Counted from the first letter of the stretch, positions 722-29,312 are shown. The stretch: 32,000 nt of DNA from Ktedonobacterales bacterium (GCA_030167145.1 CP126532.1:3090001-3122000); one strand, 5' to 3'. Notes: generated from the sequence alone by a model not told the origin. A program made the numbers and translations.

Positions 722-1009
722 CCTCTCAGTTTTGACGGCCGATACGCTCGTTGCAATGTCCACATCCGCCCCCACATGCGCGCGTCTCGTCCCTGCGCCA
801 GTATACCCAGGCGACCGGCCTACCTATCACATCCCAGCGCAGCGGACGAAAGAGAGCTTCTCCCGTCCACCGCGCCGATCAGCGCCTATGCGCGTCAATG
901 TCTCATTATATCTCTCGGACGAGTCGTCAGTATGCGAGGTACCGTCATTTGCGCATCATTTCTTTCTATAGGTGTGATGCCCATGGGTGGAGCGTTGTCC
1001 GGCGAACAA

Positions 1010-1099
1010 TTTTCGCCGTTTTCGCCGCAATTTTGAGCTGTGGCAGTTGCCGGAGTTGCTGGTTCTTTGAGTTTGCATTCTCTTTGCCGTTTTCGCCGC
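1010..1099 (-). repeat. reverse-orientation copies of short motifs that recur right of the island: GCGGCGAAAACGGCGAAAA (1010-1028, 19/19), CGGCAACTGCCA (1041-1052), GCGGCGAAAACGGC (1086-1099)
   Basis: Direct reverse-complement comparison with 5093-5111, 5305-5323 and 5138-5149. Confidence 0.8.
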
Positions 1100-1431
1100 A
1101 GCCTCGGCTGTATTGCGGATCTACAAAAATAGGACGGACATAGCGCGAGCGAGCGGTTCATACCGCGCCTGAATGGCGTGTCGCCGCGAAACCCGCCTGC
1201 GCGGGTTGGGAAGAGAGTGGTGTCCGCACCAATGAGTAAAAGTGCATCGTGGCCGAGCGCGCGTCTACCGGTTTCATGCCATATGCCTCCCCTGGTAGCC
1301 ATCCCTTTGCCTGGTCTGCTACACTAATCGCGCGCAGGCCTTTATGGATCGTGGTATCAAGTAGAATCACGTTCGCTTTCTAGCTCATCGCAGTCACCAG
1401 CAAGATAGATACACTCGAAAGGAGAAGCTGA

Positions 1432-2364
1432 ATGACTGACATCAAGCTCTTCCGCATTGGACAAAATCAAGTCTGCGAACTCGCAGGCCAATCGGTTGCC
1501 ATTGAGAAAACGCTTCAGGAGATTATGGAGCGCCATCTTGATGCACTGCTAGGCGTCCGCTTTCTCGCCTCCGAGTATAGCACTGGCAAAGTGCATGGGG
1601 GGCGTATAGATACCCTTGGTATTGACGAAAATGGCAGCCCTGTTATAGTTGAATACAAGCGTGCATCGAACCAGAACGTGATCAATCAAGGCCTATTCTA
1701 TCTCGACTGGCTTTTGGATCACCACAAAGACTTCGAAATGTTAGTGTTGAAGCGCTTCGGACCTACAGCCGAAGAAGGCGTTGATTGGCGCTATCCGCGC
1801 CTGCTCTGTATCGCGGGCGATTTCACCAAATACGATGAGAAGGCAGTCCAGCAGATTCCGCGAAATATCGAGTTGATCCGCTACAAACGCTATGGCAATG
1901 ACCTTCTTCTGCTCGATCTGGTGAATTCCATCACCGAGCAGCCTCTCGAAGAACGCAATGTCCAGAACGGCGCCCTTAAATCGAAGCACCTCTCTAGCGA
2001 GCGCCCAAGCCGAACTGTCTCTGATCTCCTCGTTGCGGCTAGTATCGACCAGCAGGACCGTTACGAGGCGATCAAAGCGTTTCTACTAGCCCTCGGTGAC
2101 GATGTCCAGGTAAAAACCCTCGCCTACTACTTCGCGTTTCGCCGGATCAAGAACTTCGCATGTGTCGAGATTCATCCTCAGGCGAAGACCATCCTCGTGT
2201 ACGTCAAAGGTGACCCAGATATGCTCACATTGGATCCTGGCTTCACGCGCGATGTCCGCAAGATTGGTCACTTCGGCACCGGCGACTTGGAAATCACTAT
2301 ACGCAGTGACGCCGACTTTGAGCGTGCCCAGCCATTGTTATTGCGGAGCTATGAACAAAGCTGA
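1432..2364 (+). CDS. PD-(D/E)xK nuclease of the NucS/DUF91 type with a DUF5655-like C-terminal domain
   Basis: 310-codon ORF with AAGGAG 7 nt upstream of the ATG. The N-terminal half carries GRIDTLGIDENGSPVIVEYK (D...E-x-K) followed by NQGLFYLDWL, the pattern of NucS/DUF91-like endonucleases. The C-terminal ~110 aa (YYFAFRRIKNFACVEIHPQAKTILVYVK...IGHFGTGDLEITIRS...AQPLLLRSY) matches my memory of the DUF5655 module. Lower GC than the flanks. Family assignment is from recognition, not a search. Confidence 0.85.
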   Translation: MTDIKLFRIGQNQVCELAGQSVAIEKTLQEIMERHLDALLGVRFLASEYSTGKVHGGRIDTLGIDENGSPVIVEYKRASNQNVINQGLFYLDWLLDHHKDFEMLVLKRFGPTAEEGVDWRYPRLLCIAGDFTKYDEKAVQQIPRNIELIRYKRYGNDLLLLDLVNSITEQPLEERNVQNGALKSKHLSSERPSRTVSDLLVAASIDQQDRYEAIKAFLLALGDDVQVKTLAYYFAFRRIKNFACVEIHPQAKTILVYVKGDPDMLTLDPGFTRDVRKIGHFGTGDLEITIRSDADFERAQPLLLRSYEQS

Positions 2365-2487
2365 ATCCATATACCACGTTCATCCATCACCGTAGAAATG
2401 ATGTCTACACTGCTCGCCAGCAGCTGTGGCAAGGCAGATGGATGCGCGGGTGGTGATAGAGAGTAAGAGAAGAGAAAGGTTGCTGGG

Positions 2488-3177
2488 ATGGACAGTGCGG
2501 CATGGGAGAGGCTTTGGCGGGAACTGGACAAAATTCGAACCTATGGTAGACAGCTTGACATTCAGACTGCGCTTGCGGCTGCACGCGAAGCCAATGTAGA
2601 CCTCAGCCTCGACGATCTGCATTTACTCATTCAAAAGATGCCACGGTTAGTTCACCAGTCACTTCCCATCTGCCCACCTGCCATCGCGCGATTTGTGTCC
2701 GATTATCTCAAAGGCGCAAAGGTAGATTCAATCCTGGACCCCCAAGCCGATAGCCTTCTACTCGCCTCATTGGCTGTCGCGACTACTGTTGCAGACGTGC
2801 GTGGATATATTCGTTCTCACGACGCGCTTGCGCTTGCCAATGCGCTTTATATCGGGCAGACGATTAGTTGGCACCATGCCAACTTTCTCCATACTTCAAT
2901 GCAGTCCTCAGAACAGTTTGATGTAGTTGCTTCTTGCCTGTCGTTTGGTATGAAGCCGATGAACGCTTCATTTTCGTCGCCAGAGGGAGAGGTGAATGTC
3001 CGCGACAATGAGGAGTATATCCTTCTACTGAAATCTTGTTTGCATCTCAAGCCACATGGCGTCGCATTCTTTGTAGTGTTTAATGGTTTCTTTTTTTGCT
3101 CGCGGTTCAAGCAGTGTATACAATGCCCTTCCACAATTCGGTTTGTATGTAGATGCTGCCATGAGCGTGCCCAATGA
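2488..3177 (+). CDS. 5' portion of a frameshifted gamma-class N6-adenine DNA methyltransferase-like gene (motifs I and IV degenerate)
   Basis: The layout follows N6_Mtase order. It has LPICPPAIARFVSDYL...SILDPQADSLLL (motif I position, DP kept, Gly loop lost), FDVVASCLSFG (NPPF position reads CLSF) and LLKSCLHLKPHGVAFFVVFNGFF (LKPGG-type motif). The frame-1 tail after the T7 run (CSRFKQCIQCPSTIRFVCRCCHERAQ*) looks non-native. Confidence 0.75.
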   Translation: MDSAAWERLWRELDKIRTYGRQLDIQTALAAAREANVDLSLDDLHLLIQKMPRLVHQSLPICPPAIARFVSDYLKGAKVDSILDPQADSLLLASLAVATTVADVRGYIRSHDALALANALYIGQTISWHHANFLHTSMQSSEQFDVVASCLSFGMKPMNASFSSPEGEVNVRDNEEYILLLKSCLHLKPHGVAFFVVFNGFFFCSRFKQCIQCPSTIRFVCRCCHERAQ

Positions 3178-4804
3178 TGTCTTTAGTCCCCTCATATCAG
3201 TTCCCACCACCCTCGTGGCGATACGGCATGGGACGGCGGAACGGATCTTTGTTGGTGAGCTATCCAACGACCATCAGCGGAATCAGGTGCTGCTTCAGAA
3301 CTTGAAGGCCCACAGACCTGGTGCTGAGCCAGCCCTTGGCATCAGCGTGAAGGCGTCCGAATATCGTGGGTACGAAGCACTTGTGGCAGGGTTTCGCGCG
3401 CGGGAACTGGCTCGTTCGCATGGTGTTCCGCCAATCAAGCTGAGCGAGATCACGCGCGAGATTAACTTCACGAACGCCACAGATTATCCACATTCTGACG
3501 AGAAGGATAATGTGGTGTACCTACCTCTACTCGGCTTCGGCAGCGCCGTGACCTCGCTCCCGCTGGAGACACAAAAACACTCATCCAGCTACGCGCAACT
3601 CGTTCTCGATCCCGAAAAGGCTGTTGCAGACTACATCGCCAAATATTTGAACACGCGGCTGGGCACGGAAACGCGACGCCAGATAGCAATGGGCACGACC
3701 AGGCCTCGCCTAGATAAGCAATTGATTGGCGAATTGCAGGTGTATATCCCTGATCACGATACCCAGCTTGCGACCGTAGAGACCGACACAAAAATTGAAA
3801 CCCTGGTCAATGAGCTTCGGGAAATGCAGGAACGTGCATGGGCACAACCTCGGCGGTTAACGGAGATCCAGAAAAACTTGATAGCTGTCAATCACGAGGA
3901 GAGATTCCAGGATTGGCTGGATACTTTGCCTTTTCCGCTGGCTTCTATTCTCTGGACATATCATACACTTGGCAACGATGCTCAGCGGCGCTATGAGCGT
4001 CTGCTCCACTTCTTCGAAGCTCTCGCCGAATTTCTAGCTGCAGTACTCGTTAGCGGCTTTCGCATGGATGCGGAGTTTTTTGAGGGCAGGAAGACCGTTC
4101 TGAAGACCGTCGTAACGCCACAAAGTTTCGAGAAAAGCGCATTTGGCACCTGGGTGCGCATCGCCGAGAATCTGGCAAGCGAGGGACGCGCTTTGCTGAA
4201 TGGAGAGCCTGAAATACAAGCTCGATGTCTACGCATGTTCAGAGTAGGCGAGAGCAATCGTGAAATGCTAACAATGCTTTTTGAGAGCAGGATAATCGGC
4301 AAGCTCCAGGAGGCAAACAAGATAAGAAATGTATGGATGGGCCATACCGGAATTGTTGGTTCTTCTAATGCTCGCGAACGCTTGGCTATTCTTGAACGTT
4401 TGCTAGCTGATGTTCGCACAGTGTTCGGCACGCGATGGCAAAGTTACAAACTGCTAAAAACAGGAACAGCGTCACTTCGAGAAGGAGTCTACAGACATCA
4501 GGTTGAAATGATTGTGGGTACCCGAACACCCTTCGAGCAGGCAGAGGTATTGACCGATGAGATGATGGAAGATAGTCAGCTTTATCTCCTCAGCGTGGGT
4601 GAGCGTAAACCGTTACGGCTATTTCCTCTGGTTAAGGTCATGCCTTCTCCAAAGACCGCCGCTAATGCCTGCTATTTCTACAATCGCATGGAAGGTACGA
4701 AAGGATTGCGTTTTGTCTCCTATCACTTTGAGCAGGATGCGGATATTACCGATGGCTTCCCCGATACAGCCGATGCGCTGCGACAACTCATGGCAGATGA
4801 TTGA
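3083..4804 (+). CDS. 3' portion of the same gene: end of the MTase fold, HsdS-like target-recognition/conserved region, helical HEPN-like domain, C-terminal beta-rich domain
   Basis: From the T7 run, frame 2 continues the MTase fold (ARGSSSVYNALPQFGLYVDAAMSVPNDVFSPLISVPTTLVAIRHG, i.e. R..L...vdaVi.LP..vF...v.t.ilv). An S-subunit-like block follows (VADYIAKYLNTRLG...GTTRPRLDKQLIGELQVYIPDHDTQLATVETDTKIETLVNELREMQ). Next come helices (LPFPLASILWTY...RRYERLLHFFEALAEFLAAVLVSGF) and IRNVWMGHTG (Rx5H). The frame stays open for 573 codons. Confidence 0.8.
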   Translation: MVSFFARGSSSVYNALPQFGLYVDAAMSVPNDVFSPLISVPTTLVAIRHGTAERIFVGELSNDHQRNQVLLQNLKAHRPGAEPALGISVKASEYRGYEALVAGFRARELARSHGVPPIKLSEITREINFTNATDYPHSDEKDNVVYLPLLGFGSAVTSLPLETQKHSSSYAQLVLDPEKAVADYIAKYLNTRLGTETRRQIAMGTTRPRLDKQLIGELQVYIPDHDTQLATVETDTKIETLVNELREMQERAWAQPRRLTEIQKNLIAVNHEERFQDWLDTLPFPLASILWTYHTLGNDAQRRYERLLHFFEALAEFLAAVLVSGFRMDAEFFEGRKTVLKTVVTPQSFEKSAFGTWVRIAENLASEGRALLNGEPEIQARCLRMFRVGESNREMLTMLFESRIIGKLQEANKIRNVWMGHTGIVGSSNARERLAILERLLADVRTVFGTRWQSYKLLKTGTASLREGVYRHQVEMIVGTRTPFEQAEVLTDEMMEDSQLYLLSVGERKPLRLFPLVKVMPSPKTAANACYFYNRMEGTKGLRFVSYHFEQDADITDGFPDTADALRQLMADD

Positions 4805-4922
4805 GGAAGCATCAGACACTATGGACATCTGCTGGACGCAAGTTCCAAGCCACTATTGAATCTGCCCTGCTTGCCGGTACTCCCAGCGCCCCAGCCACCC
4901 CGCCTCACCCTACGCCGCCCAC

Positions 4923-4951
4923 TTGAGAAAATCGAACGTATGTCCTATACT
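4923..4951 (+). promoter_or_regulatory. sigma-70-type promoter TTGAGA-17nt-TATACT firing rightward into the non-coding repeat region
   Basis: -35 TTGAGA at 4923-4928 (5/6 to TTGACA), a 17-nt spacer, and -10 TATACT at 4946-4951. The same TATACT -10 recurs in the predicted comEA and rpoB promoters. Motif-only evidence. Confidence 0.45.
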
Positions 4952-4993
4952 ACCTATTGACTCATATCATCATCGGTAAGCCTGAGAACACGG

Positions 4994-5026
4994 CGCCGCT
5001 CTCCATCCGCACATGGAGCAGCGGCG
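4994..5026 (+). other. strong stem-loop (~13 bp stem with a single C bulge) just downstream of the predicted transcription start
   Basis: CGCCGCTCTCCAT (4994-5006), loop CCGCAC, then ATGGAG-C-AGCGGCG (5013-5026). Confidence 0.6.
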
Positions 5027-5052
5027 TCCCTCATTCACCGGCTACGTGCTCT

Positions 5053-5089
5053 CCCTTTCCCTGCGAGGGAAGGGGCTGGGGGTTAGGTG
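5053..5089 (+). repeat. REP-like hairpin module CCCTTTCCCT-GCG-AGGGAAGGGG followed by CTGGGGGTTAGGTG
   Basis: 10-bp stem (one U-G pair) at 5053-5062/5066-5075. A near-identical module lies at 7854-7897. Confidence 0.8.
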
Positions 5090-5092
5090 ATT

Positions 5093-5323
5093 GCGGCGAA
5101 AACGGCGAAAAATGCGAAATCAAAATATCGGCCACATCGGCAACTGCCATCATCGGCAACTGCGAACAGCGACCACATCAGTTGCTGCTCTTTGTACCGC
5201 TGGCGTCCCGCCAGCCTCTCTATCGGTGGGGCGGACATTCCTGTCTGCCAGCATGCGAAAATCGGCAGAATCGGCAACTCTAGCAACTGCTTCGATGCGA
5301 AATCGCGGCGAAAACGGCGAAAA
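5093..5323 (+). repeat. forward copies of GCGGCGAAAACGGCGAAAA (5093-5111 and 5305-5323), each itself a CGGCGAAAA 9-mer tandem
   Basis: Exact 19-nt identity between the two copies and with the reverse complement of 1010-1028. Confidence 0.85.
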
Positions 5324-5816
5324 TTATCCGGACAGTGCCCATCATCTCCGGTCACATCCCCTCAACATTGCGGCCAAATCGGCCAAATCGGCCACTCTGG
5401 CAATCGCGAAAATCGGCAGAATCGGCAACTGCCTATACGCGCACATCGGCCATTCCGGCCACTCCTCTTCATCGAGATTATCCGTGGCATTCATGCCGAG
5501 AGGCCGCTACATCACATCACTCACCCTCTGCGCAAAATCCAAAAATCGGCCAAATCGGCCACTGGCCATTACGTGCAAATCGGCCATTGCGGCCACTCTG
5601 GCAACTGCAAAAAATCGGCCAAATCGGCCACTCCGGCCACTCCGGCCACTGTTTCCCTCACCTCGCCACTGCCGCAAACGAGATTACCCGCGGCCTTCAG
5701 GCCGGGAGTCTCCTTTATTGCCAATCTTGCCCAGCGCGCCGAATCTCAAAAATCGGCAGAATCGGCAACTGTACCTGTACCGCCAGCGTCCCGCCCGCAA
5801 TTGCGGCCACATCGGC
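5127..5816 (+). repeat. array of 18 same-strand ATCGGC(A/C) cores, nested in 9-nt tandem units and in longer repeated units
   Basis: Hand-located cores start at 5127, 5136, 5152, 5261, 5270, 5378, 5387, 5412, 5421, 5445, 5545, 5554, 5579, 5614, 5623, 5752, 5761 and 5811. The 25-nt unit GCGAAAATCGGCAGAATCGGCAACT occurs at 5255-5279 and 5406-5430, with 22 nt of it at 5749-5770. The 21-nt unit AAATCGGCCAAATCGGCCACT occurs at 5376-5396, 5543-5563 and 5612-5632. ACTCCGGCC is tandemly repeated at 5630-5650. No credible ORF. Confidence 0.85.
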
Positions 5817-6136
5817 CACAGGGCATGCATGCCCTCGCCATTGTGCTCCGGCCATGTATGGCCGAGAGCGGGAATGCCGTGCTCCGGCCATTTATGGCCG
5901 AGGCCGCCCCTCCGACATCTCTGGAGCGCGGCGGTGTACAATACAATCGCTATGCATCCCGTCGAGGCGTCCGGTGGACGAGCGGAGCGAAGTCCCTCCG
6001 AGCCGTTCCGAGGAGGGCGCCCGCCACCTGCCGCGCAGGGCAACGCTGCCCATCGCGCTTCGTGTTCGCTTCGTGTTCGCGCACCGCGCCGCTGGCAGCG
6101 TCAGGCCAGGGCCGCGCGCAAAGGAGATCTCCACCT

Positions 6137-7717
6137 ATGGTCACCATCCAGCGCCCCGCGATGGATACCGTCACACCCTTCGCCAACACTCCCCTCACCG
6201 ACTTCAGCAAAGAAGAGAACATCCGCGCGCAAGAAGCCGCGCTGCAACAGGTCGCATCTGAGCTTGGCCGCTCCTATCCGCTGATTATCAACGGCGAAAG
6301 GCGTATGACCGCCGACACCTTCACCTCCATCAACCCCGCCCGCCCGGAGCAGGTCGTCGCCGTCTTCGCCAAAGCCACCGTGCAGGATGCCAACGAAGCC
6401 GTCGAAGCCGCCTGGAAGACCTTCCAGACCTGGCAATACACCCCCGCAGCCGAACGCGCGGGCTACCTCTTCGCCGCCGCCAAACTGCTGCGCGAGCGCC
6501 GCTTCTACTTCAATGCGCTGATGATCTACGAGGTCTCCAAAAGCTGGCCCGAAGCCGACGGCGACACCGCTGAAGCGATAGACTTCATCGAGTTCTATGC
6601 CCGCGAAGCCTTGCGCCTCGCCGGTGAGCATCCGCTGACCCCCATGCCCGGCGAGCAGAACGAGCTGATCTACATCCCGCTCGGCGTCGGTGCGATCATC
6701 CCCCCGTGGAACTTCGCCTGCGCCATCATGGTCGGCCTCACCAGTTCCGCGCTCGTCGCGGGCAACACCGTCGTCCTCAAGCCCGCCAGCACCGCCGCGC
6801 TGGTCGCCGCGCGCTTCGTAGACCTGCTCGAAGAAGCTGGCCTGCCCAAAGGCGTCGTCAACTTTCTCCCCGGCCCCGGCGGCTCCATCGGCGACGCGCT
6901 TGTCGAAAACCCGCTCACCCGCTTCATCTCCTTCACCGGCTCGCGCGATGTCGGCCTGCGCATCAACGAACTTGCCGCCAAGCCACGCCCCGGCCAGAAG
7001 TGGATCAAGCGCACGATCCTCGAAATGGGCGGCAAAGATTCGATTGCCGTAGACGAAACCGCCGACCTGGACTCCGCCGCCGCTGGCATCGTCGCCTCCG
7101 CCTTCGGCTTCCAGGGGCAGAAGTGTTCCGCCTGCTCGCGCGCCATCATCGTAGATGCGGTCTACGACCAGCTCGTGCCCAAGATCGTAGACCTGGCCCG
7201 CGCGCTCACCACCGGCGACCCCACCCAGCGCGGCAGCTACATGGGCGCAGTGATTGACGAGAACGCCTACAAAAAGATCCGCCAGTACATCGAGATCGGC
7301 CAGAGCGAGGGCAAGCTGCTGCTCGGCGGCGAAAAGCTCGACGGCTCCGGCTACTTCATCCCGCCGACGATCATCGCCGATGTCGCGCCCGACGCCCGCA
7401 TCTCGCAGGAAGAGATCTTCGGCCCAGTCCTCGCCATCATCAAGGCCAAGGACTTCGACGACGCGCTCGACATCGCCAACAACACCGAGTACGGCCTCAC
7501 CGGCGCGCTCTACTCCCGCGACCGCGAGCGCATAGATCGCGCCGCCCGCGAGTTCTTTGCCGGCAACCTCTACATTAACCGCAAATGCACCGGCGCGATG
7601 GTCGGCGTCCATCCCTTCGGCGGCTTCAACATGTCCGGCACCGACTCCAAAGCCGGTGGCCGCGATTACCTGCTGCTCTTCACCCAGGCCAAATCCATCG
7701 CCGAGAAGATCGGCTAA
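6137..7717 (+). CDS. pruA: L-glutamate gamma-semialdehyde (1-pyrroline-5-carboxylate) dehydrogenase
   Basis: AAGGAG at 6121-6126, then ATG at 6137. Aldehyde dehydrogenase fold with P5CDH-type motifs (EMGGKDSIAVDETADLDSAA, FGFQGQKCSACSRAIIV, NTEYGLTGALYSRD, VGVHPFGGFNMSGTDSKAGG). The ORF-track start at 5087 is an artefactual extension through the repeats. Confidence 0.92.
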   Translation: MVTIQRPAMDTVTPFANTPLTDFSKEENIRAQEAALQQVASELGRSYPLIINGERRMTADTFTSINPARPEQVVAVFAKATVQDANEAVEAAWKTFQTWQYTPAAERAGYLFAAAKLLRERRFYFNALMIYEVSKSWPEADGDTAEAIDFIEFYAREALRLAGEHPLTPMPGEQNELIYIPLGVGAIIPPWNFACAIMVGLTSSALVAGNTVVLKPASTAALVAARFVDLLEEAGLPKGVVNFLPGPGGSIGDALVENPLTRFISFTGSRDVGLRINELAAKPRPGQKWIKRTILEMGGKDSIAVDETADLDSAAAGIVASAFGFQGQKCSACSRAIIVDAVYDQLVPKIVDLARALTTGDPTQRGSYMGAVIDENAYKKIRQYIEIGQSEGKLLLGGEKLDGSGYFIPPTIIADVAPDARISQEEIFGPVLAIIKAKDFDDALDIANNTEYGLTGALYSRDRERIDRAAREFFAGNLYINRKCTGAMVGVHPFGGFNMSGTDSKAGGRDYLLLFTQAKSIAEKIG

Positions 7718-7829
7718 TATCGCCCCTATGCTATCCCTCGTTCCCGCGTAGGGCAAGCGGAGCGCAGCCCCGCCGAGCCGTTCCGAGGAGGGGTTCCGCG
7801 TAGGGGCGTCCGGTGGACGCCCGTCAGGG

Positions 7830-7897
7830 TCGGGGGTTAGGTTCTCTCGCTCTCCCCTTCCCTACCAGGGAAGGGGTCGGGGGGTAGGTTCTCTCGC
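7830..7897 (+). repeat. REP-like module: TCGGGGGTTAGGTTCTCTCGC / hairpin CCCCTTCCCT-ACC-AGGGAAGGGG / TCGGGGGGTAGGTTCTCTCGC
   Basis: Perfect 10-bp stem at 7854-7863/7867-7876, flanked by ~21-nt direct repeats (7830-7850, 7877-7897). Homologous to 5053-5089. Confidence 0.8.
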
Positions 7898-7936: not shown

Positions 7937-8097
7937 CGTGTCCATCGCCCACCCACCCAACTACTCAGATTACGCACAATGGATGAGCTATTTCCCTCTA
8001 TCACGTCAGGATAGGACTTGACTTAACATGGCAACTTGTGTACTGTTGCTGTCACAGCGTGATATGGTCGCGTTGTGACAGTAAAAGGAGCATACAC

Positions 8098-8313
8098 ATG
8101 GCCGAACAGCCGGTCAGCGGGAACCAGCGTAGCAAAGCGCGCTATTTCGCGTATCTTCTGCTGCTGATCCCCTTCGTCGCCATGCTCTGGGTCTCGTCCT
8201 ACAACAGGGCAGATCCGGAGTTCCTGGGATTCCCGTTCTTCTACTGGTATCAGTTCCTCTGGGTTCTCATCGGGGCAGCCTTGACGGCTATCGTCTACTT
8301 CATCGTCAAGTAG
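8098..8313 (+). CDS. DUF3311-family small membrane protein (partner of the downstream symporter)
   Basis: AAAGGAG precedes ATG 8098. The 71-aa two-TM protein carries the FLGFPFFYWYQFLWV motif typical of DUF3311, immediately upstream of an SSS transporter. Confidence 0.8.
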   Translation: MAEQPVSGNQRSKARYFAYLLLLIPFVAMLWVSSYNRADPEFLGFPFFYWYQFLWVLIGAALTAIVYFIVK

Positions 8314-8394
8314 CCCGCCCCCCGTATCTACACCGCTTCGGCTCGGCATGTCCTGGCATTCGATGTACATCCCATGTAGTACAAGGAGTGGACC

Positions 8395-9972
8395 ATGCTC
8401 AACTGGACCGAACTCAGCGTCTTCATCGTGCTCTTCGCCCTGGTCACGGTGCTTGGCTTCGTGGCAGCACGCTGGCGGCGCGGCGACCTGAACCAATTGA
8501 ACGAGTGGGGCCTCGCGGGCCGCCGCTTTGGCACCCTCGTCACCTGGTTTCTGCTCGGCGGCGACCTCTACACCGCGTACACCTTCGTCGCCGTCCCCGC
8601 GCTCGTCTACGCCTCTGGCGCGATTGGCTTCTTCGCGCTGCCCTACACCATCATCGTGTATCCCTTCATCTTCGTCGTCATGCCCCGGCTCTGGGCCGTC
8701 TGCCGCAAACACCACTACATCACCGTCTCCGACTTCGTGCGCGGGCGGCATGGCAGCGGTGGCCTGGCGCTGGCGGTAGCCTTCACCGGCATTCTGGCGA
8801 CCATGCCCTACATCGCTCTGCAACTGGTGGGCATCCAGGTGGTGCTGGGCGCGATGGGCCTCCAGGGCGATTTGCCGCTGATTATCGCCTTCCTCATCCT
8901 GGCTGCCTACACCTACTTCAGCGGCCTGCGCGCTCCGGCGATGATTGCGCTGGTCAAAGACGCGATCATCTACATCACCATCATCGTCGCCATCATCGCC
9001 ATCCCCATCTACATCAGCCATACGCAAGGCAACGGCAGCGGCATCCTCAACGGGTATCAGACGATGTTCGCCAAGGTTCCGTCGGCGAAGCTCCTGCTCT
9101 CACCCAAGTCGTTCACCGTCTATGCCACGCTGGCGCTTGGCTCCGCGCTGGCGCTGTTCATGTACCCGCACTCGATTACGGGCGTGCTCAGCTCGAATAG
9201 CGGACGCGCCATCAAGCGCAACGCCGCGCTGCTGCCCGCCTATTCGTTCCTGCTGGGCCTGATCGCGCTGCTAGGCTTTATGGCGCTGGTGGTTGGCGTC
9301 AAGCCGGTGAAGCCGTTCGGCGCGCAGTATGCGGTTCCGGGCCTGTTCAATACCGTGTTCACCGGCTCCTCCAACTGGTTCGCCGGATTCGGCTTCGCCG
9401 CCATCGCCATCGGCGCGCTGGTGCCCGCCGCGGTGATGTCCATCGCGTCAGCCAACCTCTTCACCCGCAACATCCTGCGCGAATACTTCATGCCCAACAT
9501 GACCGACAAGCAGGAGGCAAGCGCGGCAAAGCTGGTGTCGCTGCTGGTGAAGGTTGGCGCGCTGGCGTTCATCATCTTCCTGCCGCTGCAACAGGCGATC
9601 AACTTCCAGTTGCTCGGTGGCGTGTGGATTCTTCAGACGCTGCCAGCGGTCGTCTTCGGCCTGTACACCCGCTGGTTCCATCGCTGGGCGCTGCTGATCG
9701 GCTGGGCCGTCGGCATGATTCTCGGCACCTACATGTCGTACCTGCAGAGCAATGCGGTGAACCCGCATTTCGCGTCGTCCACCTATTCGCTGCACCTCTT
9801 CGGCCAGGTGATTCCAGGCTATGCGGCCTTCTACGCCGTGATCGTCAATATCGCCATTGCCGTCGTCCTCTCGGCCATCTTCAACTTCATCCCTGCCCTC
9901 AAAGGCAAGGACGAGACGCAGGCGGCGGATTACGTCGAGGAGGAGGTTCCCGTCGCCGTCGCCATCGGATAA
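8395..9972 (+). CDS. sodium:solute symporter (SSS) family transporter
   Basis: 525-aa polytopic membrane protein with AAGGAG upstream. The N-terminal region (GLAGRRFGTLVTWFLLGGDLYTAYTFVAVPALVY) is typical of the SSS family, and it pairs with DUF3311. Substrate not assignable. Confidence 0.88.
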   Translation: MLNWTELSVFIVLFALVTVLGFVAARWRRGDLNQLNEWGLAGRRFGTLVTWFLLGGDLYTAYTFVAVPALVYASGAIGFFALPYTIIVYPFIFVVMPRLWAVCRKHHYITVSDFVRGRHGSGGLALAVAFTGILATMPYIALQLVGIQVVLGAMGLQGDLPLIIAFLILAAYTYFSGLRAPAMIALVKDAIIYITIIVAIIAIPIYISHTQGNGSGILNGYQTMFAKVPSAKLLLSPKSFTVYATLALGSALALFMYPHSITGVLSSNSGRAIKRNAALLPAYSFLLGLIALLGFMALVVGVKPVKPFGAQYAVPGLFNTVFTGSSNWFAGFGFAAIAIGALVPAAVMSIASANLFTRNILREYFMPNMTDKQEASAAKLVSLLVKVGALAFIIFLPLQQAINFQLLGGVWILQTLPAVVFGLYTRWFHRWALLIGWAVGMILGTYMSYLQSNAVNPHFASSTYSLHLFGQVIPGYAAFYAVIVNIAIAVVLSAIFNFIPALKGKDETQAADYVEEEVPVAVAIG

Positions 9973-10142: not shown

Positions 10143-10727
10143 ATGATGGCGGATAGGCTCGGCGACATGCTCCGCTCGCGCTATTACCGGCCCGTGATGT
10201 TCGGCCTGCTGTTCATCCTGCTGCTAGGCCTGTGGGTCGCGGTGCTCAACCGCAACGGCGACTGGCCGCCCGCGTTCTTGCAGCCACGCCCCTCCATCGC
10301 CATCACCGGCCCTGGCGTGGGCAGCAACGCCCAGATTCAGGCGTATGTGCTGGGAGCTGTCCACACACCAGGGGTGTATACGCTGCCGCAGGGGTCGCGC
10401 GTCCACGATCTGATTACGTCGGCGGGTGGCGCGCTGACCACCGCCGATCTCTCCCGCGTCAATCTGGCGGCGGTGCTCGCCGACGGCCAGTCTATCTATG
10501 TGCCGCTCACCGGTGAAGACATCCCCTTCGAGCGTGGCGGTAAAGTAGACATCAACGTCGCGACCGCCCAGCAGATGCACAACGCGCTGGGTATTAGCCT
10601 CACCACCGCACGCCACATCGTCGCCTATCGCGCTGCTCACGGCGACTTCACCGCCGTCAGTCAGCTCCTACTCGTGCCCATCACTCGCGACATCTACGAC
10701 CGCATCAAAGATCTCGTCACCGTTTAG
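10143..10727 (+). CDS. comEA: ComEA-family DNA-binding competence protein (TM anchor, SLBB-like domain, helix-hairpin-helix)
   Basis: GGAGGG at 10131-10136 precedes ATG 10143. An N-terminal TM segment (VMFGLLFILLLGLWVAVL) is followed by GVYTLPQGSRVHDLITSAGG and a C-terminal HhH block (VDINVATAQQMHNALGISLTTARHIVAYRAAHGDFTAVSQLLLVPITRDIYDRIKDLVTV). The start could be 10089 as in the track. Confidence 0.85.
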   Translation: MMADRLGDMLRSRYYRPVMFGLLFILLLGLWVAVLNRNGDWPPAFLQPRPSIAITGPGVGSNAQIQAYVLGAVHTPGVYTLPQGSRVHDLITSAGGALTTADLSRVNLAAVLADGQSIYVPLTGEDIPFERGGKVDINVATAQQMHNALGISLTTARHIVAYRAAHGDFTAVSQLLLVPITRDIYDRIKDLVTV

Positions 10728-11884
10728 GCCCACGGCGCAGTGTACCATGTCCGCAGTTCGCTGGCGGCGGGCAGGCCGTTGGGGGCGAAGGGCGGCAGCG
10801 ACCATGCCCAGAAGTAGATCCCCAGGATATGCGGATCGAAGACGGCGTCCGATACCGCCGCACGATAGATTCCCGCCTGTTCAGTGGGGTCGGCGGGAGC
10901 GGCGGTGACGCTCATATAGGGCTTATAGAGCGCGTCGGCGCTATTGCGATAGCCAATCTCCGAGATTAGCACCGGCTTGCCCAGATACGCCGAGAGCGCG
11001 TCAAGCGGCGCCTGCACCTTCTTCGCCCAGAGTGCGGGCATCGCCGCTGGGTCCACATGTACCGGCTGATCCACGAGTGAGAAGTACGACGAGACGCCGA
11101 TGGCCGCCAGACGGCGATCTTTGAGCCAGAGTGGCAGACCGTCGGTGTGCGCCTGCAAGAAGCTGAAATTCAGGTCGTAGGTGAGCGCGCCTGAATAGAC
11201 GCTGGTGACGTTGCTGAGCAGTTGTGTCCAATAGTGCGTAGGCAGAATCGCCAGATTCTCGAACTCCGTGCCGATGGCGAACTGTTCCGCGCCTCCCGCC
11301 TGCGCGGCCATGAGATAGGGTTTCAGCGCACTCCAATAGCTCGCGAACCATGCCGTACACTTCGCGTCGCTGGCGCAGCGGATGTCGCCGGCCCACTGCG
11401 AGTGCCATGGCGTCTGGTGGCGCAGTGTAATCAGCGGCACGATGAAGACGCGGAGCCCCAGGCTATGCGCCGTGCGGATGCCATCGAGCAAGGTTGCGGG
11501 GGTGGGTGTCTGTGCGCCAACCTGCACGGTGGTCGAATTGTAGGAATCTTGCTCGAGGGTGACGGCAAGCTGCACCCACCGCGCGCCCGTCTGATAGAGA
11601 ATCTCGCGCAGGCCACGCTCGTAATAGCGATTAGCTGGACTATATGCCGACGGCCCCCACTGCGGGAACGAGATGCCTGCCTGGAACTCTGGTCGCGCAT
11701 ACGCGCTGGGCGTGGGCGAGAACACGGGACTTGGTATCGGCGTCGCGGGGCCAGATGCCGCCGCGATCACCACCGAAACCCCGCCCGGTGTGGGTGGCTG
11801 GCCAGTAAAGAGCGTCCATTCGCACACGACGCTCAGCGCCAGTAACAATATGACGAGAGTGAATCCAGTACGCTTGCGCTTCAT
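10724..11884 (-). CDS. membrane-anchored or secreted TIM-barrel glycoside hydrolase-like protein (clan GH-A style catalytic pair)
   Basis: N-terminal signal/anchor (MKRKRTGFTLVILLLALSVV). FAIGTEFENL and VLISEIGYRN resemble the acid/base and nucleophile Glu motifs of clan GH-A enzymes. There is a 4-nt overlap with the upstream GT2 gene. The specific family was not determined. Confidence 0.7.
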   Translation of the reverse strand: MKRKRTGFTLVILLLALSVVCEWTLFTGQPPTPGGVSVVIAAASGPATPIPSPVFSPTPSAYARPEFQAGISFPQWGPSAYSPANRYYERGLREILYQTGARWVQLAVTLEQDSYNSTTVQVGAQTPTPATLLDGIRTAHSLGLRVFIVPLITLRHQTPWHSQWAGDIRCASDAKCTAWFASYWSALKPYLMAAQAGGAEQFAIGTEFENLAILPTHYWTQLLSNVTSVYSGALTYDLNFSFLQAHTDGLPLWLKDRRLAAIGVSSYFSLVDQPVHVDPAAMPALWAKKVQAPLDALSAYLGKPVLISEIGYRNSADALYKPYMSVTAAPADPTEQAGIYRAAVSDAVFDPHILGIYFWAWSLPPFAPNGLPAASELRTWYTAPWA

Positions 11885-13710
11885 TGCGCCGTCCCTTCAC
11901 GCGCGACGTCACGCGCAGGCGGTCTAGTGGCTGCCGTCTTGGTCAGACGCGGTTTCTGAATGACGAAGAAGCCCTGTGCGCGGCGCAGGCTGTAGAATAC
12001 GCCCGCGACTTCCAGCAGCGCATACCAGAAGAGGCCCAGCGCCAGACACCATTCCAGCGCCTGCCGCGCCAATCGCGCGGCTCCGGTGCGTGCGGCGTGT
12101 CCCCGGCCAAAACGCGCCTGCGCGTCGAGGCCATGCAGGTATGCCAGCAAGTACGTCACCCATGCGAAGTCCGCGGGAATCCGCGCCCAGGTGAACGGCT
12201 GCGTGCGCGTGGCGACGGCAATCAGCGCAATGCCGAGCGGCAGCACCGAGATCTGCCAGAGCAGAGTGAAGAGCGCCAGCGCCAGCCGGTAACGGCGGGG
12301 TACCGCGCGATCTCGCACCACTTTGCGGATGCCGCTGAGCCAGCGGGCGCGCTGCCGCACGAAGTCCATGGTGCGCTGGGGCGGCTGCTCGTGCAGATAG
12401 CCGCGCACCCAACCGAAACGCCAACCGCGTGCCCAGGCCCGCAGCGCCCAGGCGGCGTCTTCGGTGATCGAGTTCGCCGCGCCGACATCGAAGGAAAGCG
12501 CGCGCTCCTCGCTGCCACGTGTCACCAGATAGCTGCCATGCACGCCAAAGATTGGCGCTCCCAGCGCATATTGCAGCCGGAAGCGGCCCAGGTCGTCGCC
12601 GGTGCGGATCGCGTCCGCGCCACGGAAGAATGGCGAGCCGCCTTCATAGAGAATGCCGCCCTGGCCGATGAGATGTGGCGAGCGCCAGCCGTGACGCAGC
12701 GCACGCTCGCGGGCACGGGCGATGAAGTCATAGATGCCAGCGATAAGCGGCGCATCTATGGTGCTTTCTTCGTCCAGGTAGACGTGCCAATCGGCGGGGC
12801 TGGGTCGCGTGGCCTGCTGCAGATAGGTGAGCGCACGCGCCTTGTAGCGGGAATGGTGTTCGGTTTCGTAGGCAGTCGGGACGGTGTAGACCTCGGCGAG
12901 GCCGTCCAGGTCCAGCCACTCTTCCGTCACCACTTCTATCGTGTACGGCCCGGTCGCCTCTGTGTAGCTGGCGAAGGCCGCGTGAATCGAGCGCACACTC
13001 TCGCGCAGTACGTCGCTATTCTGGCCGCGCGTGCAAAAGCGAAAGACGAGCCGCGCGGGGGTGGGCATGTCGCAGCCGAGCGCAGGCGGCATCAGCGGCA
13101 CGGGGCGCGCGTCTGGCGGGCGCTGCGACGTTTCGGCGAAGAGGAACCAGCCGAACCAGAGGGTAACGGCCAGCGGCAGCGGCGCGAGCCAGAGCACCTC
13201 TAGCCAGCGCACGTGATATTGCCAGTCGGTCTTTGGCTCTGGTGCGACGCCGCCGATGAGCACCTGCAAGCGCAGCAACACCACCATCAAGAGCACGGTC
13301 ATGCCCAGCAGGGTCAGGCGATAGGTGAGCGCTCGGAGGTTGACACGCGGGCGTCCGTGCCGGGCCAACTGTGCCGCGATGGCGCCGGGGTACGGCTGCG
13401 CGACGCCTCGCCACCGCTGGGGCGCCGCTGCATGCATCCGTATCGCGCCCCCGCTATCGCTCTGGGTGAGGCGCGCGAGCGGTCCTGATAGGCTGGCGCG
13501 TCGCGCGCTGATCGTGCTACGGCGACGACGCGCCAGCGAGGCAGCAGGAATGCGTGCGGGCGCCTGTGGAGTTGTTGCTTGTGAATAGGTAGGTGCGCGT
13601 CCTGTGTATTCCAGCGGTTGCGCCAGAGGTTCTGGCCATCGTGGCCGTTGCGCATGTGGCGTCGCCGCGCTGGCCCGCCCGCTCCCCACCCTGTTTTCCA
13701 CCGTGCCCAC
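11881..13710 (-). CDS. integral-membrane family-2 glycosyltransferase (processive synthase-like)
   Basis: Motifs: VYLDEESTID (DxD-like), ITEDAAWALRAWARGWRFGWV (TED-type) and FVRQRARWLSGI (QxxRW). There are multiple TM segments on both sides. The first ~120 aa are low complexity, so the true start may be downstream (GTG 13701 or internal Met codons). Confidence 0.8.
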   Translation of the reverse strand: MGTVENRVGSGRASAATPHAQRPRWPEPLAQPLEYTGRAPTYSQATTPQAPARIPAASLARRRRSTISARRASLSGPLARLTQSDSGGAIRMHAAAPQRWRGVAQPYPGAIAAQLARHGRPRVNLRALTYRLTLLGMTVLLMVVLLRLQVLIGGVAPEPKTDWQYHVRWLEVLWLAPLPLAVTLWFGWFLFAETSQRPPDARPVPLMPPALGCDMPTPARLVFRFCTRGQNSDVLRESVRSIHAAFASYTEATGPYTIEVVTEEWLDLDGLAEVYTVPTAYETEHHSRYKARALTYLQQATRPSPADWHVYLDEESTIDAPLIAGIYDFIARARERALRHGWRSPHLIGQGGILYEGGSPFFRGADAIRTGDDLGRFRLQYALGAPIFGVHGSYLVTRGSEERALSFDVGAANSITEDAAWALRAWARGWRFGWVRGYLHEQPPQRTMDFVRQRARWLSGIRKVVRDRAVPRRYRLALALFTLLWQISVLPLGIALIAVATRTQPFTWARIPADFAWVTYLLAYLHGLDAQARFGRGHAARTGAARLARQALEWCLALGLFWYALLEVAGVFYSLRRAQGFFVIQKPRLTKTAATRPPARDVAREGTAQ

Positions 13711-13907: not shown

Positions 13908-14576
13908 ATGAACGGCAATAGTTGCGCGAACGGCGAAATGGGCGAAATCGTCGAACAGAGGTTGAGCGGCGCAACCGGCGTGGTGCTGGCGGGCGGGCAG
14001 AGCGCGCGCATGGGCCAGCCGAAGGCGGCGCTGCCGATTGGCGGCGAGCCGCTGCTGCGCCGTGTTGTGCGACGTCTCGGCGCGGCCTTCGCGGACGTGC
14101 TGGTGGTTGGCCCGCCAGAGCTAGTCCTGTTGGCGCCAGATGCGCGCGTGCTGCCCGATCAGCACCCCGGCCTGGGACCACTGGCGGGTCTCGAAGCGGC
14201 GCTCACCGCCATCGCCACGCCGCGCGCCTTCGTTATCGCCTGCGACATGCCCTTTGTCGCCCCCGCGCTCGCCCGCGCCATGGCCGCACGCGCCGCGATG
14301 CTGCCCGATGTGGATGTGGTGGCGCTGCGTTCATCACACGGCCTGGAACACCTGCACGCGGTTTATCACGTCTCCTGTCTGCCGCGCATCCACGCCCAAC
14401 TCGACGCGGGCGACCGCTCACTGCGCACGCTGCTGGCCGGGCTTCGCGTCCGCGAGTTCTCGCCCGAAGACGCGGCGCGCTATGACCCCACCGGCCTCTC
14501 CGCCTTCAACACCAATACGCCGGATGACTGGGCACGCGCGCTGGCCTTGGCGGCGAACGACATGGTTGAGAACTGA
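13908..14576 (+). CDS. mobA: molybdenum cofactor guanylyltransferase
   Basis: GVVLAGGQSARMGQPKAALPIGGEPLL, LPDQHPGLGPLAGLEAAL and FVIACDMPFV are MobA signatures. Start taken at ATG 13908 (alternative 13938). The ORF-track start at 13593 is an upstream extension. Confidence 0.85.
   Translation: MNGNSCANGEMGEIVEQRLSGATGVVLAGGQSARMGQPKAALPIGGEPLLRRVVRRLGAAFADVLVVGPPELVLLAPDARVLPDQHPGLGPLAGLEAALTAIATPRAFVIACDMPFVAPALARAMAARAAMLPDVDVVALRSSHGLEHLHAVYHVSCLPRIHAQLDAGDRSLRTLLAGLRVREFSPEDAARYDPTGLSAFNTNTPDDWARALALAANDMVEN

Positions 14577-28106: not shown

Positions 28107-29312
<1,206 letters not shown>

What the first reader, a model, noticed from the sequence alone, without database searches (positions are those of the whole stretch)
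5093..5816. Dense one-strand array of ATCGGC cores in nested 9-nt tandem units: candidate protein-titrating RNA or iteron field
I located 18 ATCGGC(A/C) cores within ~700 nt, all on the + strand. They are arranged as 9-nt tandems (AAATCGGCC x2, (A/G)AATCGGCA x2). These in turn form longer units repeated three times each: a 25-nt unit GCGAAAATCGGCAGAATCGGCAACT at 5255, 5406 and (22 nt) 5749, and a 21-nt unit AAATCGGCCAAATCGGCCACT at 5376, 5543 and 5612. Related 9-mer tandems also occur (CGGCGAAAA x2, ACTCCGGCC x2), as does an 11-mer tandem GCTTCGTGTTC x2 at 6057-6078. The three long ORFs the track draws through here are repeat translations (KSAKSAT, IGQIGH). The spacing and unit length do not fit CRISPR. 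The strict strand polarity downstream of a good promoter resembles multi-site sponge RNAs (CsrB/RsmZ logic). At DNA level it resembles iteron or centromere-like binding arrays.
Basis: seen in the sequence. Interest (0 to 1): 0.7.

Follow-up and report, generated by a model that had tools for sequence, protein, structure and literature searches.

The report
Noncoding promoter, hairpin and repeat-array element
A gene-free 0.9-kb stretch in a Ktedonobacterales genome holds a promoter-like site, a strong hairpin and about thirty same-strand copies of a 9-base CGGC motif, and the same layout occurs in one distant Chloroflexota genome, so it is probably a real, undescribed non-coding element of unknown function.

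Summary
The region is non-coding, and an independent short-read assembly reproduces it base for base.

It is not a conserved pruA leader. Five relatives have only 176-310 bp upstream of pruA and no array. The TACAAT box they share lies downstream of the array, at 5937-5947.

It is not ubiquitous filler either. About 38 kb from elsewhere in the same genome has no copy.

The array is the 3' part of a larger unit:
- a promoter-like site (4923-4951);
- a conserved block, GGTAAGCC plus a 15-bp hairpin (4975-5028);
- the array itself (5090-5820).

One locus from a 'Chloroflexia' MAG (L027) has the same order. It shares the block (alignment score 38 versus 17±2 in shuffles) and has nine AAATCGGCAGAATCGGCAAC-type units, upstream of an unrelated ABC-ATPase gene.

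The element matches no Rfam family, phage, plasmid or paper. It fails the defining features of CsrB, iterons, CRISPR and oriC.

My best reading, at about 0.4, is a transcribed non-coding RNA with a 5' stem-loop and a multivalent repeat platform. Function and partner are unknown.

The parts
4923..4951 (+). Sigma-70-type promoter-like site, TTGAGA-17-TATACT (10 of 12 matches). Two likely strong promoters of this genome use the same -10 hexamer: upstream of rpoB, and upstream of the tRNA genes in L114.
   Evidence: The equivalent site in L027 is TTGCGA-16-TATAAT at 858-831 on the - strand.
4975..5028 (+). Conserved 5' block: GGTAAGCC, a short linker, then a 15-bp hairpin (ACGGCGCCG...CGGCGTC). 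An outer helix extends to about 5043.
   Evidence: Local alignment to L027 819-768 scores 38, against 17.2 +/- 2.4 (maximum 30) in 2000 shuffles. Each copy folds to about -33 kcal/mol, with z of -4.5 and -3.6. The motif occurs nowhere else in 1 Mb of held sequence.
5053..5089 (+). Unrelated small hairpin repeat, CCCTTTCCCTGCGAGGGAAGGGG plus CTGGGGGTTAGGTG. It lies between the 5' block and the array, is absent from L027, and has a second copy at 7854-7891.
   Evidence: (pair I5).
5090..5820 (+). The array: about 30 CGGC/TGGC-core 9-nt units, all on the + strand, mostly as dimers to tetramers. There are about 13 clusters spaced 25-138 nt apart.
5258..5279 (+). Canonical dimer unit AAAATCGGCAGAATCGGCAACT, also at 5409-5430 and 5749-5770. 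The last 21 nt are identical to the L027 unit at 329-309 on its - strand.
   Evidence: blastn: 100% over 21 nt, 96% over 27 nt.
5376..5396 (+). CGGCC-variant dimer AAATCGGCCAAATCGGCCACT, also at 5543-5563 and 5612-5632. This variant is specific to the window. GGCC...GGCC can form 4-bp mini-hairpins.
   Evidence: The exact 21-mer was found only in two chance coding hits in the metagenome collection.
996..1100 (-). Partial inverted copy of the array (about 105 nt). It is about 80% identical to 5092-5149 plus 5267-5334, lies on the other side of the low-GC island, and has no 5' block.
   Evidence: (I1-I3, I8).
5849..5900 (.). Two 7-2-7 palindromes, CGGCCATGTATGGCCG and CGGCCATTTATGGCCG, 36 bp apart, between the array and the pruA-proximal TACAAT. 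They share the CGGCCA core with the array units.
   Evidence: (D5). They are unique to this locus among all held loci.
5937..5947 (+). TGTACAATACAAT: a -10-like box. All five pruA relatives have one 73-135 nt upstream of their ATG; here it is 200 nt upstream.
6137..7717 (+). pruA-like 1-pyrroline-5-carboxylate dehydrogenase, the gene downstream of the element. It is context only, not part of the element.
1432..4804 (+). Low-GC foreign island. It encodes a PDC-S18 NucS-like nuclease and a split N6-methylase/specificity gene. It is context, bracketed by the inverted patch and the array.

Best explanation
The array is the 3' part of a three-part non-coding element. The parts are a sigma-70-type promoter, a conserved 5' domain (GGUAAGCC plus a long hairpin inside a short outer helix), and a variable array of direct 9-nt CGGC-core repeats whose canonical form is the dimer AAAUCGGCAGAAUCGGCAAC.

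Shown:
- The three parts occur in the same order and on the same strand in two Chloroflexota genomes labelled as different classes.
- The two copies sit upstream of unrelated genes.
- The element is non-coding and low-copy, and it is absent from the orthologous pruA locus of five relatives.

Inferred:
- The element is transcribed from its own promoter as a long non-coding RNA or leader.
- The 5' hairpin stabilises the transcript or nucleates a partner on it.
- The repeated units form a multivalent binding platform for one unknown RNA-binding factor. The logic resembles a sponge RNA, or a 5' stem-loop plus repeat leader of the kind TRAP binds.
- In this genome the array then grew by 9-nt slippage and short internal duplications, which produced the CGGCC and CGGCG variants.
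For: 1. The composite architecture is shared. L027 was fetched only because it holds one exact 19-nt array unit. It also carries the 5' block (alignment score 38 against 17.2 +/- 2.4, maximum 30, in 2000 shuffles; controls 13-21). It has a 10-of-12 promoter-like site just upstream of the block (compared). It has 8-9 units spaced 41-62 nt apart.
2. The gap from the block to the first unit is 62 nt in the window and 63 nt in L027.
3. The hairpin structure is conserved while its sequence is not. The lower 9 bp are identical. The upper stems differ (CUCUCCAU/AUGGAG against UCCCUCGC/GCGAAGGA) but each is self-complementary. The outer helix has U-A in one copy and C-G in the other.
4. The G-U pairs in these stems would be C-A mismatches on the opposite strand. 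This points to a single-stranded product of the array strand.
5. All units are co-oriented with the promoter and with the downstream gene in both genomes.
6. A 21-nt unit is identical in both genomes, although the spacers and neighbouring genes differ.
7. The region is non-coding.
8. An independent assembly reproduces it exactly.
Against: - There are no expression data.
- There are only two instances, so covariation rests on a handful of pairs.
- No intrinsic terminator closes the array on the + strand.
- The CGGC cores are predicted to be more paired than the rest of the RNA (unpaired probability 0.34 against 0.53 in the window, 0.32 against 0.43 in L027). They are not displayed in loops as in CsrB.
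- Tandem 9-bp direct repeats are also typical of sites for DNA-binding proteins.
- An inverted partial copy lies across a foreign island. This looks more like a DNA-level or mobile feature.
- No candidate partner gene is shared by the two loci.
Confidence: 0.4

Rival explanations
1. The array works at the DNA level. The 9-bp direct-repeat dimers are sites for a DNA-binding protein that oligomerises head to tail. Examples of such proteins are ribbon-helix-helix or winged-helix types. The array would then act as a decoy or titration field, a centromere-like site or a roadblock next to the promoter.
For: Short direct repeats in one orientation, often as dimers, are the usual format for such proteins (own knowledge: MetJ 8-bp boxes, Omega 7-bp heptads, ParR 10-11-bp repeats, P1 incA iterons). 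Two palindromes with the same CGGCCA core lie just downstream. An inverted partial copy exists 4 kb away.
Against: No rep, par or regulator gene is adjacent in either genome. The spacing of units in L027 (41-62 bp) shows no helical phasing. The associated hairpin keeps its structure rather than its sequence and uses G-U pairs; a duplex operator would not need either. There is no AT-rich unwinding region and no DnaA-box cluster.
Confidence: 0.2
2. The element is selfish or mobile. The repeats are transposase- or recombinase-binding sites. The hairpin is an end structure of an element that moves between loci and genomes. The foreign island is cargo lying between an inverted left end (996-1100) and a right end (the array).
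For: The element is absent from the orthologous locus of five relatives and sits at a synteny break next to horizontally acquired DNA. Inverted copies bracket the island. The element lies upstream of unrelated genes in two distant genomes. Multi-site ends are known from Tn7 and Mu, and subterminal hairpins from IS200/IS605 (own knowledge).
Against: No transposase, integrase or relaxase lies in or near either copy. A right 'end' of 730 bp with about 30 sites is far larger than any known transposon end. No target-site duplication was found. No copy was seen in 38 kb from elsewhere in the genome, in phages, or in plasmids. The left patch lacks the 5' block.
Confidence: 0.2
3. The array is neutral filler. 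It arose from local slippage and duplication of a simple sequence in a rearrangement scar and has no function or partner.
For: The nested 9-nt tandems and short (47 nt or less) mosaic duplications look like slippage products. The array is lineage-specific at this locus. The stop-codon depletion is seen only in this copy.
Against: A 21-nt unit and a separate 54-nt structured block are shared with a genome labelled as another class, in the same order and orientation. Neutral slippage products would not be conserved in this way. Other intergenic regions of this genome lack such arrays.
Confidence: 0.07
4. The array is a cis-regulatory leader dedicated to pruA, for example a protein-mediated attenuator of proline catabolism.
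For: The array reads towards pruA, and no terminator separates the two.
Against: Five relatives with 75-81% identical PruA have intergenic regions of 176-310 bp without the array. Their shared TACAAT box lies downstream of the array in the window. The homologous element in L027 precedes an ABC-ATPase gene, not pruA.
Confidence: 0.05
5. The region encodes a repeat protein or an N-terminal extension of PruA (ORF 5087-7717, 876 aa).
For: All three + frames are nearly free of stop codons over 5091-6136: 1 stop against 16.9 +/- 3.2 expected. One frame runs into pruA.
Against: There is no codon-position GC signal. The 9-nt clusters fall in all three frames. No homologs exist. No relative has a repeat-derived extension on PruA. 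The L027 array has normal stop content.
Confidence: 0.02

Closest known systems
CsrB/RsmY/RsmZ-type sponge RNAs
   Same: A promoter-driven non-coding region carries many same-strand copies of a short motif (here 18-30 copies in about 730 nt). The possible logic is multivalent protein capture.
   Different: The motif is AUCGGC or CGGCA, not A(N)GGA; only 3 GGA occur in the array. The cores are not predicted to lie in loops. There is no terminator and no Rfam match. No CsrA partner is known for this organism.
Bacillus subtilis trp leader bound by TRAP (5' stem-loop followed by 11 (G/U)AG repeats)
   Same: The layout matches: promoter, then a 5' stem-loop, then a run of short direct repeats on the transcript, then a gene. 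This comparison is from my own knowledge.
   Different: TRAP repeats are triplets spaced 2-3 nt apart, all within about 55 nt, for one 11-mer ring. Here the units are 9-nt dimers in clusters 25-138 nt apart over 430-730 nt. No anti-terminator and terminator pair was found.
Plasmid and phage iteron fields (e.g. P1 incA, RK2, R6K)
   Same: There are many direct repeats in one orientation in non-coding DNA. The suggested logic is titration.
   Different: Iterons are 17-22 bp at roughly 22-bp spacing, next to a rep gene, DnaA boxes and an AT-rich region. None of these features is present.
Centromere-like parC/parH arrays bound by ribbon-helix-helix proteins (ParR, ParG, Omega)
   Same: These are tandem 7-11-bp direct repeats overlapping or adjoining a promoter.
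   Different: No parA, parM, parR or parG gene is nearby. The units are interrupted by long, non-repeated spacers.
Cyanobacterial STRR (short tandemly repeated repetitive) sequences
   Same: These are short (7-bp) tandem units in intergenic or promoter regions. They can form hairpins, and their function is still unknown (PMC2670836).
   Different: STRRs are heptamers dispersed in many copies across heterocystous cyanobacterial genomes. Here the units are nonamers, the copy number is low, and the array is tied to a conserved promoter and hairpin module.
CRISPR arrays and type III toxin-antitoxin (ToxI) repeat RNAs
   Same: A leader promoter is followed by a repeat-and-spacer layout. In L027 the units are about 22 nt, with a period of 41-62 nt.
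   Different: The units are degenerate (74-95% identical) and their spacing is irregular. There are no cas genes and no toxN-like gene. In the window the units occur as contiguous 9-nt tandems.

Membership tests
CsrB/RsmZ sponge RNA | Multiple A(N)GGA motifs, mostly in hairpin loops | tested here: not met
   Only 3 GGA occur on the + strand in 5093-5816. The repeated core is ATCGGC, and the cores are predicted to be more paired than the rest of the RNA.
CsrB/RsmZ sponge RNA | Discrete small RNA with its own promoter and a Rho-independent terminator | tested here: inconclusive
   A promoter-like site is present at 4923-4951. No terminator-like site follows the array on the + strand. There are no expression data.
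CsrB/RsmZ sponge RNA | Match to a curated covariance model | tested here: not met
   No Rfam 15 family scores E<=1 in window 4000-7000. Small-region scans of the window and L027 at E<=10 return only two weak chance matches (E about 6-7) far below the families' gathering scores.
Iteron-type replication origin or incompatibility locus | 17-22-bp direct repeats at regular spacing of about 22 bp | tested here: not met
   The units are 9 nt. Clusters are 25-138 nt apart in the window and 41-62 nt apart in L027.
Iteron-type replication origin or incompatibility locus | Adjacent rep gene, DnaA boxes and an AT-rich unwinding element | tested here: not met
   Pfam, NCBIfam and PADLOC scans of the neighbouring genes show no Rep protein. 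DnaA-box matches number 3 against 2.5 expected, and none lies in the region. GC content is 0.55-0.62 throughout.
Chromosomal oriC | Cluster of DnaA boxes next to dnaA or dnaN | tested here: not met
   One search finds no cluster. No dnaA or dnaN gene is in the window or in L001.
CRISPR array | Near-identical 23-47-nt repeats, evenly spaced by unique spacers of similar length, usually with cas genes | tested here: not met
   The exact repeats are 21-25 nt with spacings of 151, 343, 167 and 69 nt. The copies are degenerate. No cas domains were found.
Genome-wide dispersed intergenic repeat (REP/BIME, STRR-like filler) | Many copies scattered through the intergenic regions of the same genome | tested here: not met
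   The 21 kb around the second tuf gene and the 17 kb beyond the window have no copy by k-mer, regex or nhmmer search. Only about 74 kb of the 5.07 Mb was sampled, so a moderate copy number is not excluded.
Conserved pruA cis-regulatory leader | Presence upstream of pruA in related genomes | tested here: not met
   Five Ktedonobacterales relatives have no array and a short intergenic region.
Transposon ends with multiple transposase-binding repeats (Tn7/Mu-like) | Inverted terminal repeats with subterminal sites, target-site duplication, and a cognate transposase | tested here: inconclusive
   Inverted partial copies bracket a 4-kb island. No transposase was found. The ends are very unequal in size, and no target-site duplication was identified.
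Type III toxin-antitoxin (ToxIN-like) | Exact tandem repeats of about 36 nt, followed by a terminator and an endoribonuclease toxin gene | tested here: not met
   The repeats are irregular. The downstream genes are pruA and an ABC ATPase.

The most novel reading that the evidence does not exclude
This would be a previously undescribed class of Chloroflexota non-coding RNA. Its parts would be its own sigma-70-type promoter, a conserved two-helix 5' domain (GGUAAGCC plus hairpin), and an expandable array of AAAUCGGCAGAAUCGGCAAC repeats. The array would bind many copies of one unknown protein, as a sponge or scaffold in the manner of CsrB but with a different motif and partner, or it would be cut into unit-length small RNAs. 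The element would be recruited or moved in front of different genes, in one case next to a defence island.
Probability: 0.25. Interest if true: 0.75.

Novelty: new variant of a known kind. Interest (0 to 1): 0.5.

Why it matters
Regulatory RNAs and protein-titrating elements are almost unexplored in Chloroflexota and Ktedonobacteria. If this is a transcribed element, it would give a concrete, searchable signature: a 54-nt structured block plus a 20-nt repeat. That signature could be used to find a new RNA-protein or DNA-protein system across a large, mostly uncultured phylum. It would also show how repeat number can expand within such an element. Even if the element is selfish, it would define a new small mobile or recombining element sitting next to defence islands. 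The practical lesson for annotation is that the ORFs of 300-876 aa drawn through the region (one deposited as a 390-aa protein) are artefacts.

Tried and rejected
- **Exact-pattern scans.**
  - The genome-contig scan gave 91+ single chance hits.
  - The metagenome scan with the CGGCC 21-mer gave two chance hits inside a dehydrogenase gene.
  - Four viral scans gave only chance hits.
  - blastn against plasmids and phages found nothing.
- **Protein-space detour for spurious ORFs over similar arrays.** The concatenated-frames query gave 0 hits. phmmer against 1.84 billion representatives found only the query's own ORF.
- **Decayed remnant of the ancestral upstream gene (about 890 aa).** No tblastn signal.
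- **oriC or DnaA titration.** No DnaA boxes.
- **tRNA or known RNA.** None found.
- **Association with the neighbouring methylase or defence genes.** Homologous islands elsewhere carry no arrays.
- **The L027 array arose by duplicating the 5' end of the ABC gene.** The alignment is not significant: score 16 against 13.2 +/- 2.1, with 135 of 1000 shuffles at least as good.
- **Third patch at 13925-13955.** It overlaps the likely true start of the mobA-like gene and resembles the array only weakly. I treat it as marginal.
- **Stop-codon depletion as a family trait.** It is absent in L027.
- **N-terminally extended PruA homologs as hidden arrays.** Their extensions are not repeat-like.
- **Literature.** No paper holds the unit sequence or describes such repeats in Ktedonobacteria or Chloroflexi.

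Full report
**1. The observation**

The window comes from a 5.07-Mb contig of a MAG that NCBI labels Ktedonobacterales bacterium. Positions 4805-6136 form a 1.33-kb gene-free gap. On its left is a 573-aa ORF. On its right is a pruA-like aldehyde dehydrogenase gene starting at 6137.

ATCGGC(A/C) occurs 18 times on the + strand between 5127 and 5817 and never on the - strand there. The whole window holds 37 matches, against 16.7 +/- 4.3 in shuffles.

The period is 9 nt. Tandem Repeats Finder shows this. So does base autocorrelation, at 0.42 for lag 9. If the core is relaxed to [CT]GGC[ACG], there are about 30 units. They occur as dimers to tetramers in about 13 clusters.

A Logan short-read contig is identical to the window over 5995 nt, including the array. 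The array is therefore not an assembly artefact.

**2. It is non-coding**

- The long + ORFs are repeat translations.
- GC content is flat across codon positions at 0.56-0.58. Host genes show GC3 of 0.81-0.87.
- The clusters fall in all three frames.
- A concatenated translation found no protein homolog.
- An exhaustive phmmer search of 1.84 billion representatives found only the ORF called at this same locus.

The + strand of 5091-6136 carries 1 stop trinucleotide against 16.9 +/- 3.2 expected. The homologous array in L027 does not share this. I therefore treat it as a by-product of amplifying stop-free units.

**3. It is not a conserved pruA leader**

I fetched five related genomes with 75-81% identical PruA. 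In each, only 176-310 bp separate pruA from a divergent gene of about 890 aa, and there is no array. No remnant of that divergent gene survives in the window.

All six pruA loci carry a TACAAT box upstream of the ATG: 73-135 nt upstream in the relatives and 200 nt upstream in the window. In the window it lies at 5937-5947, about 120 nt downstream of the array's end.

The array therefore sits at a synteny break. To its left lies a low-GC island with GC3 of 0.53-0.60. The island encodes a PDC-S18 NucS-like nuclease (E = 8.6e-145) and a split N6-methylase/specificity gene.

**4. It is not ubiquitous filler**

A second tuf gene with an identical product gave access to 21 kb from 1.39 Mb away in the same contig. 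The first tuf look-up added 17 kb beyond the window. Neither stretch holds a copy by k-mer, regular-expression or nhmmer search, and their intergenic regions look ordinary.

Within the window there is one further copy. It is a 105-nt patch at 996-1100 on the - strand, about 80% identical to 5092-5149 plus 5267-5334. It lies on the other side of the island.

A third, weak resemblance at 13925-13955 overlaps the likely start of a mobA-like gene. I treat it as marginal.

**5. The key result: a homolog in a distant genome**

The genome-collection scan returned 91+ loci, and almost all were chance hits in coding DNA. One was different. L027 comes from a MAG labelled 'uncultured Chloroflexia bacterium', a different class from Ktedonobacteria.

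On its - strand, L027 has 8-9 units of the AAATCGGCAGAATCGGCAAC type, spaced 41-62 nt apart over about 430 nt. One unit is identical to the window's canonical unit over 21 nt, and 96% identical over 27 nt.

L027 was selected only by that unit. Even so, the sequence upstream of its array also matches the sequence upstream of the window's array. Both have GGTAAGCC, a short linker and a long hairpin (window 4975-5028, L027 819-768). The local alignment scores 38, against 17.2 +/- 2.4 (maximum 30) in 2000 shuffles. Six control intergenic pieces, tested in both orientations, score 13-21. This block occurs nowhere else in the 1 Mb of sequence held.

Other shared features:
- Both genomes have a 10-of-12 sigma-70-type promoter-like site 12-24 nt upstream of the block. 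In the window it is TTGAGA-17-TATACT at 4923-4951. In L027 it is TTGCGA-16-TATAAT at 858-831.
- TATACT is also the -10 hexamer of the likely strong promoters upstream of rpoB and of a tRNA cluster in this genome.
- The gap between the block and the first unit is 62 nt in the window and 63 nt in L027.

The downstream genes differ: pruA here, and an ABC-transporter ATPase in L027. No neighbouring protein is shared between the two loci.

**6. Structure of the 5' block**

Each copy folds into a hairpin of 15-16 bp inside a short outer helix. Energies are about -33 kcal/mol, with z-scores of -4.5 and -3.6.

The lower nine pairs are identical in the two copies. The upper stems have different sequences but stay complementary in each. 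The outer helix shows U-A in one copy and C-G in the other. Several pairs are G-U, which would be C-A mismatches on the opposite strand.

The MAFFT/RNAalifold consensus recovers only the lower stem, because the upper stems are out of register. With two sequences this is suggestive, not proof. It favours a single-stranded product of the array strand, which would most simply be RNA.

**7. What the element is not**

- It matches no Rfam family at permissive thresholds.
- It has no tRNA.
- It has no DnaA-box cluster.
- It has no rep, par, cas, transposase or relaxase gene nearby.
- It has no match in phage or plasmid collections.
- No paper contains the unit or describes such repeats in this group.
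- CsrB-type features fail. There are 3 GGA in the array, no terminator, and the cores are predicted to be more paired than their surroundings.

**8. Interpretation**

The best-supported reading, at about 0.4, is a promoter-driven non-coding transcript. A conserved 5' stem-loop domain would be followed by a multivalent repeat platform for an unknown factor. The closest analogies in layout are sponge RNAs and the TRAP-bound trp leader. The element belongs to neither family. In this genome the array has additionally grown by 9-nt slippage and by short mosaic duplications of 47 nt or less. This produced the CGGCC and CGGCG variants that L027 lacks.

The rivals are as follows:
- A DNA-level binding array (0.2). 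Tandem 9-bp direct repeats, the nearby CGGCCAT-N2-ATGGCCG palindromes and the inverted patch all fit this.
- A selfish or mobile element whose repeats are recombinase sites (0.2). The synteny break, the inverted copies around foreign DNA and the different target genes fit this. No enzyme or target-site duplication was found.
- Neutral filler (0.07). The cross-class conservation weakens this.
- A dedicated pruA leader (0.05).
- A coding region (0.02).

**9. Verdict**

The sponge-RNA idea gains indirect support from the conserved promoter and hairpin context, but it is untested. The iteron, centromere and pruA-leader ideas find no support.

The finding is best described as an undescribed, low-copy, composite non-coding element of Chloroflexota. 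Only two instances are known so far. The decisive work is a covariance-model census, strand-specific expression data and a pull-down.

Noticed in passing
window 1432-4804: A low-GC island (GC 0.44-0.59, GC3 0.53-0.60). It encodes a PDC-S18 NucS_C/DUF5655 nuclease, plus 229-aa and 573-aa ORFs that overlap by 95 nt. Homologs of the 573-aa ORF are single N6-methylase proteins of about 770 aa. The gene here therefore looks split or frameshifted: a restriction-modification-like defence island of foreign origin.
   Followed up: partly
window 5981-6017 and 7756-7792: Direct copies of AGCGGAGCG.AG.CCC.CCGAGCCGTTCCGAGGAGGG bracket pruA. Both Logan short-read contigs (L002, L119) end inside this repeat, which suggests it is multi-copy in the genome.
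   Followed up: partly
window 5053-5089 and 7854-7891: A small GC-rich hairpin repeat (CCCTTTCCCTGCGAGGGAAGGGG plus CTGGGGGTTAGGT) occurs on both sides of pruA. It is absent from the homologous element in L027, so it is likely a separate dispersed mini-element.
   Followed up: no
window 5849-5864 and 5885-5900: Two 7-2-7 palindromes, CGGCCAT(GT/TT)ATGGCCG, lie 36 bp apart and 40-90 bp upstream of the pruA-proximal TACAAT box. They are operator-like, unique among all held loci, and absent from relatives.
   Followed up: partly
window 5091-6136, + strand: There is only 1 stop trinucleotide in all three frames together, against 16.9 +/- 3.2 in dinucleotide-preserving shuffles. As a result, ORFs of 308-876 aa are drawn through non-coding DNA, and one is deposited as a 390-aa protein (P0121).
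   Followed up: partly
window 28107-29312 and L114 10001-11206: Two tuf genes encode an identical 401-aa EF-Tu, 1.39 Mb apart. One lies in the str operon. The other follows a tRNA cluster and precedes rpmG-secE-nusG-rplK.
   Followed up: yes
window 7962-9972 and 10724-13710: Compared with five relatives (pruA-comEA-mobA-FTR1), this genome has extra genes inserted between pruA and comEA (DUF3311 plus MctP permease) and between comEA and mobA (GH113 plus a family-2 glycosyltransferase).
   Followed up: partly
window 13925-13955: CGGCGAAAT x2.8 weakly resembles the first array units. It overlaps the probable true start (ATG at 13938) of the mobA-like gene, whose called start at 13908 is probably too far upstream.
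   Followed up: partly
window 6057-6078: The 11-nt tandem GCTTCGTGTTC x2 lies in the pruA 5' region and is not conserved in relatives.
   Followed up: no
L001 1-475 (upstream of the window): The dnaB helicase gene carries an intein with a LAGLIDADG endonuclease domain (precomputed Pfam hits).
   Followed up: no
L027 732-676 (- strand): A strong Shine-Dalgarno sequence (AAGGAG-N8-ATG) is followed by an 18-codon ORF (MRTDLTCEIPKIGRTAKT). It lies between the 5' hairpin and the array, and its end is encoded by the first array unit. There is no clear counterpart in the window.
   Followed up: partly
L027 about 900-4900 and 1574-1614: About 4 kb upstream of the L027 element has no Pfam-recognisable ORF. 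It contains an 11-nt tandem, GCAGGCAAGGA x3.7.
   Followed up: no
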